Shown here piece after piece: positions 31,776-40,338 of a stretch of DNA of 64,000 nucleotides. Position numbers and translations under genes: made by a program. The notes under the pieces were generated by a model. It saw only the letters and a program-made list of their open reading frames with translations, was not told the origin of the DNA and made no database searches. The stretch's first letter is position 1. Each line of letters begins with the position of its first letter. The DNA is from Methylotenera sp. (GTDB lineage: Bacteria > Pseudomonadota > Gammaproteobacteria > Burkholderiales > Methylophilaceae): contig JBEBJI010000006.1 of NCBI GenBank assembly GCA_040079935.1, forward strand, positions 17,077-81,076, read 5' to 3'.

Positions 31776-33146
31776 TTAATCGATTGCTTTTACAATCGCT
31801 TCAACCACATGTTTCGCATCGCCAAACACCATCATAGTTTTATCGAGGTAAAACAGCTCATTATCAAGCCCAGCATAGCCCGCGGCCATGCTGCGTTTAT
31901 TCACAATAATCGTTTTTGCTTTGTATGCCTCTAAAATCGGCATGCCGTAAATGGAGCTGCCAGTTTTTTTTGCGGCGGGGTTCACCACATCGTTCGCGCC
32001 AATCACAAACACTACGTCTGTCTGGCCAAATTCATTGTTCACATCTTCCATCTCCACCACTTGCTCGTAAGGTACGTCGGCTTCGGCTAAAAGCACGTTC
32101 ATATGCCCTGGCATGCGCCCTGCGACTGGGTGAATGGCATATTTCACATTCACCCCTTTGGCGATTAATTTGGTGGTGAGCTCTTGCAAAGCATGCTGTG
32201 CGCGAGATACCGCCAAGCCATAGCCTGGCACAATGATTACCGTATCTGCATTGCCCATTAAAAACGCGACATCGTCTGCCGAGCCTGATTTCACGGCTTT
32301 TTGTTCACCGCCAGCGTCGCCCACCGCCACTTCAGCGCCAAATCCGCCGAGCATGACGGCGATAATCGAGCGGTTCATGGCCTTGCACATAATATAAGAC
32401 AAAATCGCACCAGACGAACCTACGCAAGCGCCAGCGATAATTAGCACCGAATTATTGAGCGTAAAGCCAATGCCCGCCGCCGCCCAACCAGAATAACTAT
32501 TAAGCATGGAAACCACCACCGGCATATCCGCCCCACCAATGGGGATGATGAGCGTTATGCCTAGCACTAGCGCTAAGCCGCACATAATTAAAAATGCGGT
32601 TTGGCTACTTTGTAAATAGAACAAAATACCAAAACCTAGCATGAGCAAGGCGAGCACAAGATTTAACAAATGCTGACCTTTAAAAATGGCGGGCTTGGAG
32701 CCAAATTTGCCTGAAAGTTTGCCGAAAGCGACTACAGAAGCAGTAAACGTAATCGCACCAATAAACGCACCGATAAAGAGCTCAACACGTTGAACACTTG
32801 TGTGGCTTTCTGCAGTGTTAAATACTGCAGCAATAGCGATTAGCACCGCCGATAAGCCCACAAACGAGTGCATCAGCGCTACCAGCTCGGGCATTTTGGT
32901 CATCTGCACGCGTTTTGCAGCCAGTGTGCCGACAATTGCCCCTAACACAATCGCGCCCGTAATTAGCGGAACAATCAGGTTATGCCCAACAAAAAATGTA
33001 GTTGCCACGGCAATTGCCATACCGACCATACCCAGCGCATTGCCCAAGCGCGCGCTGGTAGGAGAAGCTAACCCTTTGAGTGAAAAAATGAATAAAATCG
33101 CAGAGATTAAATATGCAGCTGTCGTGAAATTAGGGTTAACGGTCAT
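31776..33146 (-). CDS. pntB: NAD(P) transhydrogenase beta subunit
   Basis: MPELVALMHSFVG, GGADMPV, HPVAGRMPGHMNVLLAEA, GANDVVNP. Confidence 0.97.
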   Translation of the reverse strand: MTVNPNFTTAAYLISAILFIFSLKGLASPTSARLGNALGMVGMAIAVATTFFVGHNLIVPLITGAIVLGAIVGTLAAKRVQMTKMPELVALMHSFVGLSAVLIAIAAVFNTAESHTSVQRVELFIGAFIGAITFTASVVAFGKLSGKFGSKPAIFKGQHLLNLVLALLMLGFGILFYLQSSQTAFLIMCGLALVLGITLIIPIGGADMPVVVSMLNSYSGWAAAGIGFTLNNSVLIIAGACVGSSGAILSYIMCKAMNRSIIAVMLGGFGAEVAVGDAGGEQKAVKSGSADDVAFLMGNADTVIIVPGYGLAVSRAQHALQELTTKLIAKGVNVKYAIHPVAGRMPGHMNVLLAEADVPYEQVVEMEDVNNEFGQTDVVFVIGANDVVNPAAKKTGSSIYGMPILEAYKAKTIIVNKRSMAAGYAGLDNELFYLDKTMMVFGDAKHVVEAIVKAID

Positions 33147-33466
33147 TAGTGGCTGACCTCTTTAACTTTAGCTTCTTTCTTTTTAAACATCTCCAGCATT
33201 CTGCGCGTCACCATAAAACCGCCGAAAATATTAATCGACGTTAAAAACACCGCAATTGCGCCTAAAATACTAGTTAGATTTAATGTGTTGCTGTCAATAT
33301 TCACCGTTTGCAGCATCGCGCCGACAATCACAATGCCCGAAATTGCGTTGGTAACAGACATCAGCGGCGTATGTAATGCGGGTGTCACCGTCCAAACCAC
33401 GTGGTAACCGACAAAAATGGCTAATACGAAAATAGTGATATTTTGCATGGTGAGTAAGTCAGTCAT
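33146..33466 (-). CDS. pntA: NAD(P) transhydrogenase alpha subunit, membrane part (PntAb)
   Basis: [30 protein letters not shown]. Confidence 0.95.
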
Positions 33467-33492
33467 CGCTTCTTCCCTATTTCTTCTGTTGT

Positions 33493-34617
33493 CTATTTGT
33501 TAATAACTTGACCGTCTTTGCACATCAAACTGGCGGTCACTAATTCGTCATCGGATGGAATGTTAAATTTGCCATCTCGAACTAATAGCTTCAAAAACTC
33601 CAAAATATTGCGTGCATAAAATGCGGAAGCATCCGCTGCTACCAAACTGGGCAAATTGGTATAGCCGACAATCGTCACACCGTGTTTATTCACTACTTTA
33701 TTCGCTTCTGTCAGCGGACAATTGCCTGCGCCCGTTTTGCTTGTGCCTGCCGCCATGTCGATAATCACCGAGCCTGGCTTCATCAAAGCAATCGTTTCAG
33801 CATGAATTAAAGTGGGTGGCTCACGGCCAGGAATGAGTGCAGAAGAAATCACAATATCAGCCTCAGCAGCGCGCTGGGCAACGAGTGCAGCCTGGCGCTG
33901 CATCCAAGAAGTGGGCATGGGTCGCGCGTATCCGCCCACGCCAGTCGCGCATTCTTTTTCTTCTTCGCTTTCATAAGGCACGTCCAAAAACTTAGCGCCT
34001 AATGATTCAATTTGTTCTTTCACCGCTGGCCGCACGTCGGAGGCTTCGACCACAGCACCTAATCTTTTGGCCGTAGCGATCGCCTGCAAGCCTGCAACCC
34101 CTGCTCCAAGAACCAGTACCCGCGCGGCTTTCACCGTGCCTGCAGAAGTCATTAACATCGGCATAAAACGTTGATAAAAATGGCTGCCGAGTAGCACCGC
34201 CTTGTAACCCGCCACATTGGCTTGTGATGACAACACGTCCATACTTTGTGCACGGCTATTCCGCGGCAAAGCTTCAAGTGAGAATGCTGTCAAACCTTGA
34301 TCTGCCATCGCTTTAAGTTGCGTTTGGTTAAATGGCTCGAGCAGGCCGATTAATACGGTGTCTGCCTGCATCGCCTTTATTTCTGAGGCTTCTGGCGCAC
34401 GTACTTTTAAAATTACATCAGCTTTAAATATCTCTTTAGCAGAAACAAGCTCTGCACCAGCGGTTTTGTATGCTTCGTCGGTAATACTGGCGAGCTCACC
34501 AGCGCCTTTTTGCACCAAGACTTGGCAACCCAAAGCGATGATTTTCTTAATGGTTTCTGGCGTCGCTGCCACGCGACATTCATGCTCTTTAATTTCGGTA
34601 GGAACGCCTATTTTCAT
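33493..34617 (-). CDS. pntA: NAD(P) transhydrogenase alpha subunit, NAD-binding part (PntAa)
   Basis: [36 protein letters not shown]. Confidence 0.95.
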
Positions 34618-34632
34618 TTTATGACTTGTACC

Positions 34633-39270: not shown

Positions 39271-39330
39271 ACTTTTTCACCCTTCCAGTTAAAGAATAGT
39301 TTCGATACGCTACTTTATTAAACTTTAAAG

Positions 39331-39377
39331 TTAAGTTATATTAATAAATTCTTTACATAAGATTAAGCATTGCTTAA
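39331..39377. promoter_or_regulatory. CbbR (LysR) operator motifs
   Basis: TNA-N7-TNA at 39331, 39353 and 39364; the last is within the palindrome TTAAGCATTGCTTAA. Confidence 0.6.
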
Positions 39378-39417
39378 CCATGCTTATATTTATGCCAATT
39401 TTTTTGAGAAAATTTTT

Positions 39418-40338
39418 TTGAAAAACCTTACTTTGCGTCAAATCAGAATATTTATAAGTGCAGCAAAGCACTTAAGCTTTACCCGCGCGGCAGAAGAATT
39501 GCACATTTCAGCACCCGCTATTTCCTTGCAAATCAAGGAGATGGAAGAAGATATTGGCGTGAGTTTATTCACGCGCGAAAACCGAAAAGTCGCACTGACA
39601 TCTGCAGGCGAATATTTTTTACTTTATGCGCGCCGAGTTTCTAGCACACTCAACGAAGCCAATACCATGATGGAGCGCTTTCGCGGCACGCAATTTAGGC
39701 ACTTAAAAATTGGCGTGGTGAGCACGGCGAAGTATTTTTTACCGCATTTGTTGGTGGAATTTAAAAAAGATTACCCTAACTTGCAAATTAAAATTGAAGC
39801 GCGTAACCGCCAACAATTAGTAGAATTGCTACGCGATGGCGAGATTGACATCGCAATTATGGGCTTGCCGCCTAAGGAAATTGACACTCGAGTTGAATCG
39901 TTTGCTAACCACCCGCACGTATTTATTGCCAGTCCAAACAACCTGCTGGCGAACAAGCTCAACATTCCGCCAGATGCGCTCACGCAATATGAAATGATTA
40001 CGCGTGAACCTGGCTCTGGTACGCGCGCGATCATGGAAAAATACTTTGCCGAGCATGGTATTGCGCCGATTGTTAGCATGGAAATGTCCAGTAACGAGAC
40101 GATTAAACAAGCGGTAATGGCTGATTTGGGCATCTCTTTCGTGTCTTTGCACACCATCGGCAGCGAGCTTGCAACTAAGCAAATCGCTATTTTGGATATT
40201 CAAGATACGCCCATCATCCGCACCTGGCATGTGGTTGCGCTGAATAAACGCAACGCAAGTCAAGCGGCAGAAGCGTTTAGATATTTTGTACTAGAAAAAG
40301 GTGGGGAGATTTTAACCAGCATGTTTGCTGAAATTTAG
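39418..40338 (+). CDS. cbbR: LysR regulator CbbR
   Basis: LTLRQ...SFTRAAEELH HTH, REPGSGTR, SNETIKQAVMA; divergent from cbbL; TTG start at 39418 assumed. Confidence 0.92.
   Translation: MKNLTLRQIRIFISAAKHLSFTRAAEELHISAPAISLQIKEMEEDIGVSLFTRENRKVALTSAGEYFLLYARRVSSTLNEANTMMERFRGTQFRHLKIGVVSTAKYFLPHLLVEFKKDYPNLQIKIEARNRQQLVELLRDGEIDIAIMGLPPKEIDTRVESFANHPHVFIASPNNLLANKLNIPPDALTQYEMITREPGSGTRAIMEKYFAEHGIAPIVSMEMSSNETIKQAVMADLGISFVSLHTIGSELATKQIAILDIQDTPIIRTWHVVALNKRNASQAAEAFRYFVLEKGGEILTSMFAEI

What the first reader, a model, noticed from the sequence alone, without database searches (positions are those of the whole stretch)
31776..40338. Complete red-type RuBisCO module in an apparent Methylophilaceae chromosome
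cbbR is divergent from cbbL-cbbS-cbbX-prkB-tpiA-pntAa-pntAb-pntB. The catalytic motifs I checked are intact (FMKDDE, KPKLG, PRK Walker A, CbbX AAA+) and three TNA-N7-TNA operator motifs are present. Established: characterised Methylophilaceae assimilate C1 via the RuMP pathway and are not regarded as CBB autotrophs. If the host assignment holds, this is an unusual, probably acquired CO2-fixing capacity. I cannot exclude that similar strains or MAGs are already reported.
Basis: partly seen in the sequence, partly recalled or inferred. Interest (0 to 1): 0.8.

Follow-up and report, generated by a model that had tools for sequence, protein, structure and literature searches.

The report
Calvin-cycle operon in a Methylotenera genome
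The window carries an intact CO2-fixation (RuBisCO) operon in a methanol-eating Methylotenera bacterium, but about half the species of this genus have one and papers since 2022 report it, so it is real and not new.

Summary
They are intact and under strong purifying selection.

The host assignment holds.
- The genome has two hps copies, phi, tal and three XoxF-type methanol dehydrogenases.
- It shares its GTDB genus with MAGs named Methylotenera sp., and its family with Methylobacillus sp. MM3.

The trait is not rare and not a recent import.
- Form I RuBisCO occurs in 24 of 47 species genomes of the genus. It occurs in 52 of 361 genomes of the family, across 12 genera.
- PRK occurs only in RuBisCO-bearing genomes of the genus.
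- The backbone (cbbR, fbp, prk, fba, tpiA; less clearly cbbX) is specific to Methylophilaceae, and its two variants follow an RpoB tree.
- Only cbbL and cbbS group with Gallionellaceae and Nitrotoga (92% and 90% identity). This suggests an old swap of the RuBisCO genes inside a resident operon.
- This genome has a trimmed operon without fbp, cbbZ and fba. Copies of those genes lie elsewhere, so the cycle is complete.

CBB genes in Methylophilaceae or Methylotenera MAGs were already reported in PMC9802188 (2022), PMC11978286 (2025) and PMC12642877 (2025). Function is inferred, not shown. Interest is low to moderate.

The parts
37777..39270 (-). cbbL, large subunit of form I red-type (IC) RuBisCO, 497 aa
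   Evidence: NF003252 at 770 bits against a cut-off of 438. Catalytic motifs are intact. Best solved relatives are red-type. It sits in a clade with Gallionellaceae and Nitrotoga.
37305..37739 (-). cbbS, red-type small subunit, 144 aa
   Evidence: Matches 1bxn_I at E 1.5e-62 along its full length, C-terminal extension included. It is 90% identical to the Gallionellaceae CbbS and 58% to the M-type CbbS of G061.
36400..37305 (-). cbbX, AAA+ red-type RuBisCO activase, 301 aa
   Evidence: TIGR02880 at 494 bits against a cut-off of 459. 3SYK at E 1e-127. Walker A GNPGTGKT and Walker B FIDEAY are present.
35490..36371 (-). prk (cbbP), phosphoribulokinase; the likely true start is about 36353
   Evidence: NF011997 at 463 bits against a cut-off of 362. 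It lies in a PRK clade made up only of Methylophilaceae (38 rows, SH-aLRT 99), in sub-type A.
34633..35388 (-). tpiA, triose-phosphate isomerase; the operon copy, one of three in the genome
   Evidence: TIGR00419 at 194 bits. Paralogues on C35 and C70 are 52-53% identical.
31776..34617 (-). pntAA (33493-34617), pntAB (33146-33466) and pntB (31776-33146): proton-translocating NAD(P) transhydrogenase
   Evidence: NF006942 and NF006974. Same strand, with gaps of 15 bp, 26 bp and a 1-bp overlap. The link to the cbb genes holds throughout the genus, but G060 has pntAB without any cbb genes.
39271..39417 (.). cbbL-cbbR control region, with a conserved operator block of about 90 bp that includes the palindrome TTAAGCATTGCTTAA (39363-39377)
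   Evidence: The block is conserved across type A, type B and M-type loci, while the sequence around it diverges. The palindrome is unique in the window.
39418..40338 (+). cbbR, LysR-type regulator; the ORF is open from 39370, and the start is most likely TTG 39418
   Evidence: NF045990 at 284 bits, below its cut-off of 450. The start aligns with ATG/GTG/TTG starts in relatives. It is 72-80% identical to CbbR of other Methylophilaceae clusters and 39-42% to Gallionellaceae and Nitrotoga CbbR.
31711..31758 (.). REP-like hairpin just downstream of pntB; probably the 3' end of the transcription unit
   Evidence: Predicted fold of -24.5 kcal/mol. At least 124 places in the genome match the element. 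No copy lies between 31758 and 41094.
15594..26656 (+). Context: assimilatory nitrate cluster (nasT, nrtABC, porin, nirBD, nasA). The cbb cluster lies next to it throughout the genus.
   Evidence: Pfam matches. In G043, G002, G012, G054 and G052, cbbR abuts nasT, so the cluster sits on the other side of this block.
40383..42945 (.). Context: orf218 (ion-channel-like) and a PQQ dehydrogenase. This native gene pair is also present in genomes without RuBisCO.
   Evidence: Pfam and NCBIfam matches. The pair is found in G008, G016, G021 and G043:C4.

Best explanation
This is a resident, CbbR-controlled cbb operon in the chromosome of a Methylotenera species (Methylophilaceae). It is not a freshly acquired island.

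What it adds: the two enzymes the RuMP cycle lacks, phosphoribulokinase and a form IC red-type RuBisCO with its CbbX activase. It also carries an extra triose-phosphate isomerase and the PntAB transhydrogenase.

How it most likely works:
- PRK converts ribulose-5-phosphate, the RuMP formaldehyde acceptor, into RuBP.
- RuBisCO carboxylates RuBP.
- PGK, GAPDH, FBA, FBPase, TKT, RPE and RPI, all encoded elsewhere in the genome, close the Calvin cycle.
- Phosphoglycolate phosphatase, also encoded elsewhere, removes the oxygenase by-product.
- Energy and reductant most likely come from oxidising methanol or other C1 compounds (three XoxF-type dehydrogenases). That would make it autotrophic or mixotrophic methylotrophy.
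- PntAB would supply NADPH when the oxidative RuMP branch is not running.

Evolution:
- The backbone (cbbR, fbp, prk, cbbZ, fba, tpiA; less clearly cbbX) is a lineage specific to Methylophilaceae, found in at least 7 genera. It was inherited within Methylotenera subclades, with repeated loss and trimming.
- cbbL and cbbS were replaced at some earlier time by Gallionellaceae/Nitrotoga-like genes, downstream of the conserved operator.
- This genome has the trimmed form, without fbp, cbbZ and fba.

Shown: gene identities, intactness, distribution, tree discordance and purifying selection. Inferred: co-transcription, regulation by CbbR, the physiological role and the role of PntAB.
For: - Gene identities and motifs.
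- Host: all 47 genomes of the genus have hps, 44 of them in two or more copies. This genome also has phi and tal and three XoxF-type dehydrogenases with the DYD motif.
- Distribution: form I RuBisCO in 24 of 47 species of the genus and 52 of 361 genomes of the family. PRK is in 23 of 47 and in none of the RuBisCO-less genomes.
- Backbone: the same gene order, cbbR / cbbLSX-fbp-prk-(cbbZ)-fba-tpiA, occurs in genera g1, g18, g22, g23, g33, g52 and g57. All Methylophilaceae PRK form one clade (SH-aLRT 99).
- Discordance: CbbL of the genus groups with Gallionellaceae, Nitrotoga and Polaromonas (SH-aLRT 99). G061 and four other genera have a separate CbbL clade (SH-aLRT 100). Forcing the backbone loci into one CbbL clade costs 228 lnL units (p-AU 2e-100). 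CbbL and CbbS are 92% and 90% identical to Gallionellaceae, but CbbR is only 39%.
- Vertical inheritance: cluster types A and B map onto separate RpoB clades.
- Selection: dN/dS is 0.006-0.04 with dS about 1-1.5, as for the neighbouring pntB.
- Completeness: FBA, FBPase, phosphoglycolate phosphatase, RPE, GAPDH and PGK were confirmed by NCBIfam, and TKT by homology.
- Regulation and operon end: conserved operator, and a single REP-like hairpin only after pntB.
Against: - There is no expression or physiological evidence for this organism.
- In Lake Constance metatranscriptomes, Methylophilaceae form IC cbbL showed negligible expression, 0.00-0.11 FPKM (PMC12642877).
- The operon here has lost fbp, cbbZ and fba. 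Relatives show erosion: prk is a pseudogene fragment in G010 and carries an in-frame TAA in G048. The trait is therefore dispensable.
- The RpoB tree covers only 21 of 47 genomes, and the clade for the AU test was named after the tree had been seen.
- The direction of the cbbLS replacement is inferred from the distribution, not proven.
- cbbL GC3 is at the 95th percentile of this genome's genes. That could reflect foreign origin or high expression.
Confidence: 0.78

Rival explanations
1. A recently acquired genomic island: the whole cbb block came by horizontal transfer from an autotrophic betaproteobacterium (Gallionellaceae or Nitrotoga-like) into this Methylotenera.
For: CbbL and CbbS are 92% and 90% identical to a Gallionellaceae MAG, and the tree nests them with Gallionellaceae and Nitrotoga. 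cbbL GC3 is at the 95th percentile. Cultured members of the family are reported to lack the CBB cycle (PMC6794327).
Against: - Identity to the same donor-like loci is only 39-42% for CbbR and 66-68% for CbbX. For PRK, the best identity to any non-Methylophilaceae locus is 66%. Identity to other Methylophilaceae clusters is 72-80% for CbbR, 72-74% for CbbX and 71-72% for PRK.
- Methylophilaceae PRK is monophyletic.
- dS is about 1 or more between species, the same as for flanking genes.
- The cluster type follows the RpoB tree.
- No tRNA, integrase or transposase lies at the borders.
- The flanking repeat is a REP-like element found across the genome.
Confidence: 0.06
2. An artefact: the contig is mis-binned or chimeric, and the RuBisCO genes belong to another organism in the metagenome.
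For: The genome is a MAG of 81 contigs with 2.1% estimated contamination. Read coverage could not be checked.
Against: - The contig is 91 kb. The assimilatory nitrate genes next to the cluster are 79-93% identical to those of other genomes of the genus.
- Both junctions of the cluster recur in independent MAGs.
- GC is even across the window.
- The native orf218 / PQQ-dehydrogenase pair is also present in complete RuBisCO-less genomes.
Confidence: 0.02
3. The genes are kept, but not for autotrophic growth. PRK and RuBisCO act as a shunt that re-fixes CO2 or serves as a redox sink during methylotrophic growth, as in Methylococcus capsulatus Bath. Alternatively, they are on the way to being lost in this trimmed operon.
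For: - A RuMP cycle is present in every genome of the genus, so only PRK and RuBisCO are needed for a shunt.
- The operon here has lost fbp, cbbZ and fba, and relatives show prk decay.
- Expression in situ was negligible in one lake (PMC12642877).
- No NiFe-hydrogenase or SoxY signature was found, so no obvious inorganic energy source (regex only).
- From my own knowledge, not checked here: RuBisCO is reported to be essential in the RuMP methanotroph M. capsulatus Bath.
Against: - Strong purifying selection on all cbb genes (dN/dS of 0.04 or less) argues against decay in this genome.
- A dedicated CbbR operator is conserved.
- The full CBB enzyme set is present, so autotrophy is not excluded.
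- Authors of PMC11978286 read the same gene set as facultative autotrophy.
Confidence: 0.3

Closest known systems
CBB gene sets of lake-water Methylotenera (clade LW2) and of Methylophilaceae MAGs (PMC11978286, 2025; PMC9802188, 2022; PMC12642877, 2025)
   Same: Same genus or family. RuBisCO and PRK sit beside a RuMP cycle, the RuBisCO is form IC, and the evidence comes from MAGs. The closest public loci are Methylotenera or Methylophilaceae MAGs with 96-98% CbbL identity and the same gene order.
   Different: In the passages I read, those papers report presence or absence only. The operon anatomy, the two backbone variants, the trimmed form in this genome and the separate origin of cbbLS are described here. 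They may or may not appear in those papers' supplements, which I did not read.
cbb operons of facultative autotrophs with form IC RuBisCO and CbbX (Cupriavidus necator, Rhodobacter sphaeroides, Polaromonas, Nitrosospira)
   Same: Divergent cbbR; cbbL-cbbS-cbbX followed by fbp, prk, cbbZ and fba in relatives; red-type L8S8 enzyme with an AAA+ activase.
   Different: The host is a RuMP methylotroph. The operon ends in tpiA-pntAA-pntAB-pntB. No tkt, gap or pgk lies in the operon. This genome also lacks fbp, cbbZ and fba in the operon.
Methylococcus capsulatus Bath (a RuMP methanotroph with RuBisCO) and CBB methylotrophs such as Paracoccus or Methylibium
   Same: C1 oxidation combined with RuBisCO-based CO2 assimilation. 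In Methylococcus the RuMP and CBB enzymes coexist. This comparison rests on my own knowledge.
   Different: Different families and different operon lineages. Function has been tested there and not here.

Membership tests
Form I red-type (IC) RuBisCO | Large subunit matches the form I model above its cut-off, with catalytic residues intact | tested here: met
   NF003252 at 770 bits against a cut-off of 438. The motifs [42 protein letters not shown] and QFGGGT are all present.
Form I red-type (IC) RuBisCO | Adjacent small subunit of the long red-type kind, with red-type affinity of both subunits | tested here: met
   CbbS (144 aa) aligns end to end with 1bxn_I, 1bwv_S and 5nv3_I. The best solved CbbL relatives are from Galdieria, C. 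necator and R. sphaeroides.
CbbX red-type RuBisCO activase | Equivalog model above its cut-off, AAA+ Walker A and B motifs, and a position next to cbbLS | tested here: met
   TIGR02880 at 494 bits against a cut-off of 459. 3SYK at E 1e-127 over 294 residues. GNPGTGKT and FIDEAY are present.
CbbX red-type RuBisCO activase | RuBP-stimulated ATPase that remodels inhibited RuBisCO | not testable with these tools
   This needs a biochemical assay.
Bacterial phosphoribulokinase | Equivalog model above its cut-off and a P-loop | tested here: met
   NF011997 at 463 bits against a cut-off of 362. GSSGSGTTT is present.
CbbR (LysR regulator of cbb operons) | LysR protein divergent from cbbL, with a conserved T-N11-A / TNA-N7-TNA operator | tested here: met
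   Divergent arrangement. A conserved block of about 90 bp includes the palindrome TTAAGCATTGCTTAA.
CbbR (LysR regulator of cbb operons) | Match to the curated CbbR equivalog model | tested here: inconclusive
   NF045990 scores 284 bits, below its cut-off of 450. That model is built on Rhodobacter-type CbbR.
Complete Calvin-Benson-Bassham cycle | All enzymes encoded: RuBisCO, PRK, PGK, GAPDH, TPI, FBA, FBPase/SBPase, TKT, RPE and RPI | tested here: met
   RuBisCO, PRK and TPI in the window. FBA, FBPase, RPE, GAPDH and PGK by NCBIfam. TKT by 62% identity to the Polaromonas tkt in its cbb cluster, and RPI by motif only. A dedicated SBPase was not looked for; FBPase is assumed to be bifunctional.
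RuMP-cycle methylotroph of the Methylophilaceae (genus Methylotenera) | hps and phi present, methanol dehydrogenase present, and membership of the genus | tested here: met
   Two hps copies, phi and tal. Three XoxF-type dehydrogenases, by motif. Same GTDB genus as the MAGs named Methylotenera sp. OTE_75_metabat_285 and 340R_metabinner_32. No 16S or GTDB-Tk run was possible.
Recently acquired genomic island | Mobility genes or a tRNA at the borders, atypical composition, patchy presence that disagrees with the host tree | tested here: not met
   No mobility genes in the flanks. The nearest tRNAs are at 10.0-10.3 kb. GC is 0.42-0.49, against a genome mean of 0.44. The border repeats are a REP-like element found across the genome. 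Cluster types follow the RpoB clades.

The most novel reading that the evidence does not exclude
Two readings go beyond what I found reported.

(a) Methylophilaceae have their own old cbb operon lineage (cbbR, fbp, prk, cbbZ, fba, tpiA; less clearly cbbX). In Methylotenera only the RuBisCO structural genes were swapped, for Gallionellaceae/Nitrotoga-like cbbLS, behind an unchanged CbbR operator. That would be a clean natural cassette exchange of RuBisCO. I rate this reading alone at about 0.6 probability.

(b) More speculatively, part of this clade could be true lithoautotrophs. They might draw electrons from Fe(II) or another extracellular donor through the giant 27- to 36-haem c7-type cytochromes encoded next to the ccm genes. 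That would end the view of the family as obligate methylotrophs.

The probability and interest given below are for (b).
Probability: 0.08. Interest if true: 0.6.

Novelty: already known. Interest (0 to 1): 0.25.

Why it matters
Methylophilaceae are textbook RuMP methylotrophs, and a 2019 comparative study still stated that the family lacks the Calvin cycle. Genome data now show PRK and RuBisCO in about one in seven species of the family and half the species of this genus. Carbon budgets that treat freshwater and glacier-fed Methylotenera as pure consumers of methanol carbon may therefore miss CO2 assimilation. That point has already been made in print from MAGs, so this window adds another example, not a discovery.

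What remains open:
- Whether the pathway supports growth.
- What the energy source is.
- Why a transhydrogenase travels with the operon.
- How RuBisCO genes of one lineage came to sit in an operon of another.

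Tried and rejected
- **Sequencing runs and read mapping.** There is no coverage check across the junctions and no transcript evidence.
- **Species tree.** The rpoB search found the gene in only 24 of 47 genomes, because the loose first look missed several complete genomes. The species tree therefore has 21 tips and rests on one gene.
- **Kinship of named loci.** The tool does not report it.
- **Promoter and terminator scan.** It found no more sites than in shuffled sequence: 12 against 18.7 promoters, and 15 against 13.6 terminators. 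I draw nothing from it.
- **TNA-N7-TNA count.** Not significant against AT-rich windows. Conservation of the block replaced it as evidence.
- **Hydrogenase and sox.** Regex scans for NiFe large-subunit motifs and the SoxY C-terminus found nothing. This is weak negative evidence.
- **Multihaem cytochromes and RuBisCO.** They co-occur in 8 of 24 RuBisCO-bearing genomes against 2 of 23 without (Fisher p = 0.07), uncorrected for phylogeny. This is not convincing.
- **G008 as a deletion scar.** G008 has an 81-aa ANTAR ORF and a second GAPDH upstream of orf218. I considered it a scar of a nas-cbb deletion. At 60% identity to NasT it may be a separate gene, so I leave it open.
- **G016 as the ancestral state.** G016 has fbp-fba-tpiA-pntAB without prk or RuBisCO, which could be an ancestral block without cbb genes. 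The contig ends right after fbp, and its Fbp is only 52% identical to the cluster Fbp of G043, so it cannot be decided.
- **Inverted repeats around the cluster.** The pair at 31711 and 41099 is a REP-like element with at least 124 matching places in the genome, not an island border.

Full report
**1. The observation**

- On the minus strand: cbbL 37777-39270, cbbS 37305-37739, cbbX 36400-37305, prk 35490-36371, tpiA 34633-35388, pntAA 33493-34617, pntAB 33146-33466 and pntB 31776-33146.
- On the plus strand: cbbR 39370-40338.
- NCBIfam places CbbL (770 bits), CbbX (494), PRK (463) and TpiA above their curated cut-offs. The CbbR match is below its cut-off (284 against 450).
- The translations carry the catalytic and nucleotide-binding motifs.
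- The nearest solved structures are red-type: Galdieria, C. necator and R. sphaeroides RuBisCO, and R. sphaeroides CbbX.

The operator claim needs qualifying. TNA-N7-TNA is so loose that about 10% of AT-rich 147-bp windows reach the observed count. But an alignment of the cbbR-cbbL spacer from 19 related loci shows a conserved block of about 90 bp in otherwise divergent sequence. The block contains those motifs and the palindrome TTAAGCATTGCTTAA (39363-39377), which is unique in the window. The same alignment puts the real cbbR start at TTG 39418.

**2. The host**

- The window is part of a 91-kb contig. The genome is 2.4 Mb in 81 contigs and estimated 99.9% complete.
- All 47 species genomes of its GTDB genus have hexulose-phosphate synthase, 44 of them in two or more copies. 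This genome also has phi, and tal next to hps, plus three XoxF-type methanol dehydrogenases.
- Handles are anonymised, but contig lengths identify several of them. G013 is 'Methylotenera sp. OTE_75_metabat_285'. G004 is 'Methylotenera sp. 340R_metabinner_32'. G002 is 'Methylophilaceae bacterium S06.Bin152'. All three are in the same genus as this genome. G169 is the isolate Methylobacillus sp. MM3, in the same family.
- Gallionellaceae and Nitrotoga genomes lack phi.

The host assignment therefore holds.

The block is not a chimera. The junction orf481-pntB recurs in G013. The junction cbbR-orf218 recurs in G050, G048, G003 and G051. The neighbouring assimilatory nitrate cluster is 79-93% identical in protein to that of other genomes of the genus. 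The orf218 / PQQ-dehydrogenase pair is also found in complete genomes that lack RuBisCO.

**3. How unusual it is**

- In the genus, 21 genomes have a strong form I match. Three more have fragments at contig ends (G010, G015 and G047). That makes 24 of 47.
- PRK is found in 23 of 47, and in none of the RuBisCO-less genomes.
- In the family, 52 of 361 species genomes have a form I large subunit above the cut-off, in 12 of 41 genera.
- The RuBisCO-less members of the genus include the complete or near-complete genomes G021, G023, G062 and G001. That fits the culture-based view that the family lacks the cycle (PMC6794327).

MAG-based papers have already reported the trait:
- a Methylophilaceae MAG with all CBB genes (PMC9802188, 2022);
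- RubisCO and PRK in all lake-water clade LW2 Methylotenera, read as facultative autotrophy (PMC11978286, 2025);
- Methylophilaceae form IC cbbL in Lake Constance, with negligible transcription (PMC12642877, 2025).

**4. Anatomy across relatives**

I mapped the cluster genes onto 60 fetched loci.

- *Shared backbone.* cbbR / cbbL-cbbS-cbbX-fbp-prk-(cbbZ)-fba-tpiA is found in seven genera of the family. In this genus, g23 and g18 it is followed by pntAA-pntAB-pntB. The identities of fbp, cbbZ and fba were confirmed by NCBIfam.
- *Type B.* G043, G002, G012, G054, G052, G047 and G017 have the full set. Where the flank was recovered (G043, G002, G012, G054, G052), cbbR abuts nasT.
- *Type A.* This is the group of the present genome. 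It has a PRK only 71-72% identical to type B and lies on the other side of the nitrate cluster.
- *Trimming within type A.* G005, G041, G048, G014, G004 and G051 keep fbp and fba. This genome, G013, G009 and G050 have lost fbp, cbbZ and fba. G003 and G042 have lost tpiA as well.
- *Decay in relatives.* G010 has only a prk fragment with three stops, and G048 has an in-frame TAA in prk.
- *Completeness here.* This genome has FBA and FBPase on C29, phosphoglycolate phosphatase and RPE on C45, TKT-GAPDH-PGK on C27, two RPI candidates and two further tpiA copies. The cycle is therefore complete.

**5. Origin**

- *Discordant trees.* All Methylophilaceae PRK form one clade (38 rows, SH-aLRT 99). CbbR is 72-80% identical among these clusters but at most 51% identical to any outside locus. 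CbbX of the genus is sister to a group holding the other Methylophilaceae and Nevskia, not to Gallionellaceae.
- *CbbL tells another story.* CbbL of the genus, together with g23 and g21, lies in a clade with Gallionellaceae, Nitrotoga and Polaromonas (SH-aLRT 99). G061 (same genus) and g22, g33, g52 and g57 carry a separate CbbL lineage found only in Methylophilaceae (SH-aLRT 100).
- *AU test.* Holding all backbone loci together in the CbbL tree is rejected (delta lnL 228, p-AU 2e-100). The caveat is that the group was defined after I had seen the tree.
- *Extent of the foreign part.* It covers the whole of cbbL and cbbS. The operator upstream is of the backbone type.
- *Most economical reading.* An old exchange of cbbLS inside a resident operon.
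- *Age.* The exchange is not recent. dS between species is 0.9-1.6 for cbbL, cbbS, cbbX and cbbR (up to 2.5 for prk), against 1.2-1.4 for pntB. dN/dS is 0.006-0.04. Composition is only mildly raised: cbbL GC3 is 0.52, against a genome mean of 0.43.
- *Vertical descent with losses.* On an RpoB tree of 21 genomes, type B genomes form one clade, sister to the RuBisCO-less group of complete genomes. Type A genomes form another, with the RuBisCO-less G018 and G008 nested inside.
- *No island borders.* No tRNA or mobility gene marks the borders. The inverted repeats flanking the block belong to a REP-like hairpin family with at least 124 matching places in the genome.

**6. How it probably works**

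Shown: an intact, constrained set of genes that adds PRK, RuBisCO and its activase to a RuMP organism that has every other Calvin-cycle enzyme.

Inferred:
- *One transcript.* Transcription probably runs from a CbbR-controlled promoter through cbbL to pntB. All genes are on one strand, with gaps of at most 101 bp. The only strong hairpin lies just after pntB.
- *Role of PRK.* It pulls ribulose-5-phosphate out of the RuMP pool.
- *Energy source.* Most likely C1 oxidation. I found no hydrogenase or Sox signature (regex only).
- *Role of PntAB.* It would make NADPH from NADH when the NADPH-yielding oxidative RuMP branch is idle. pntAB also occurs without cbb genes in G060, so it may be a native neighbour and not a dedicated cbb gene.
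- *Autotrophy or shunt.* Sequence cannot say whether the pathway supports full autotrophy or only a CO2-refixing or redox shunt during methylotrophy. The low in-situ expression in one lake and the repeated trimming argue that it is conditional and dispensable.

**7. Verdict**

The claims that the module is unusual and probably acquired are not upheld. The trait is widespread in the genus, is an old resident of the family with a mosaic history, and is already published from MAGs. Its novelty class is 'already known'. The operon anatomy and the cbbLS cassette exchange are modest additions.

Noticed in passing
own genome, G000:C81:1-4906 and G000:C27:151563-155871 (outside the window): Three giant c7-type multihaem cytochromes with 27, 36 and 27 CxxCH motifs. 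Two of them are cut by contig ends, so they may be one locus. They lie next to a 731-aa secreted protein with no Pfam match and next to ccmA-H. The 658-aa cytochrome is in 10 of 47 genomes of the genus, 8 of which carry RuBisCO (Fisher p = 0.07). This may be extracellular electron transfer.
   Followed up: partly
window 26662-26711, 29423-29472, 31711-31758, 41094-41146, 43436-43485: A REP-like palindromic element of about 50 nt (core TGCTCTGTAACCC...GGGTTGCAGAGCA), with at least 124 matching places in this genome. Four of the five window copies are intergenic, and they probably act as terminators. The copy at 43436-43485 lies inside the mnmC2 ORF.
   Followed up: partly
own genome, C35:4523-5293 and C70:199475-200251, plus window 34633-35388: Three triose-phosphate isomerase genes in a 2.4-Mb genome. 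The operon copy is only 52-53% identical to the other two.
   Followed up: no
L149 (G010:C102) and G048:C88:3110-3970: Signs that the cbb operon is eroding in relatives. In G010, prk is reduced to a fragment with three stop codons. In G048, prk has one in-frame TAA, which may be a sequencing error.
   Followed up: no
L102, L103 (G169 = Methylobacillus sp. MM3, contig NZ_LXTQ01000001.1): This cultured Methylophilaceae isolate has two form I RuBisCO genes. One is 56% identical to the window's CbbL and has no cbbS, cbbX or prk hit beside it, so it is probably green-type. The other is a form IC, 87% identical, with cbbX. There is also a third RuBisCO-like gene scoring about 242 bits. The strain would be a ready test organism.
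   Followed up: no
L131-L133 (G111, G112, G114; genus g21 of the same family): These genomes carry a cbbR-cbbLSX cluster that is Gallionellaceae-like throughout (CbbR 43-44% and CbbX 68-69% identical to the window's). Their CbbL and CbbS are nevertheless 93-95% identical to the window's. They are a possible donor, or a fellow recipient, of the cbbLS cassette.
   Followed up: partly
L094 (G008:C14), 11134-12489: In this RuBisCO-less relative, a stand-alone 81-aa ANTAR ORF and an extra GAPDH gene sit directly upstream of orf218. The ANTAR ORF is 60% identical to the C-terminal part of NasT. In this window the cbb operon occupies that position. It may be a deletion scar or unrelated.
   Followed up: partly
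window 42979-44915: MnmC is encoded as two overlapping ORFs and not as one fusion: the MnmC2 methyltransferase (42979-43746) and an FAD oxidoreductase (43743-44915).
   Followed up: no
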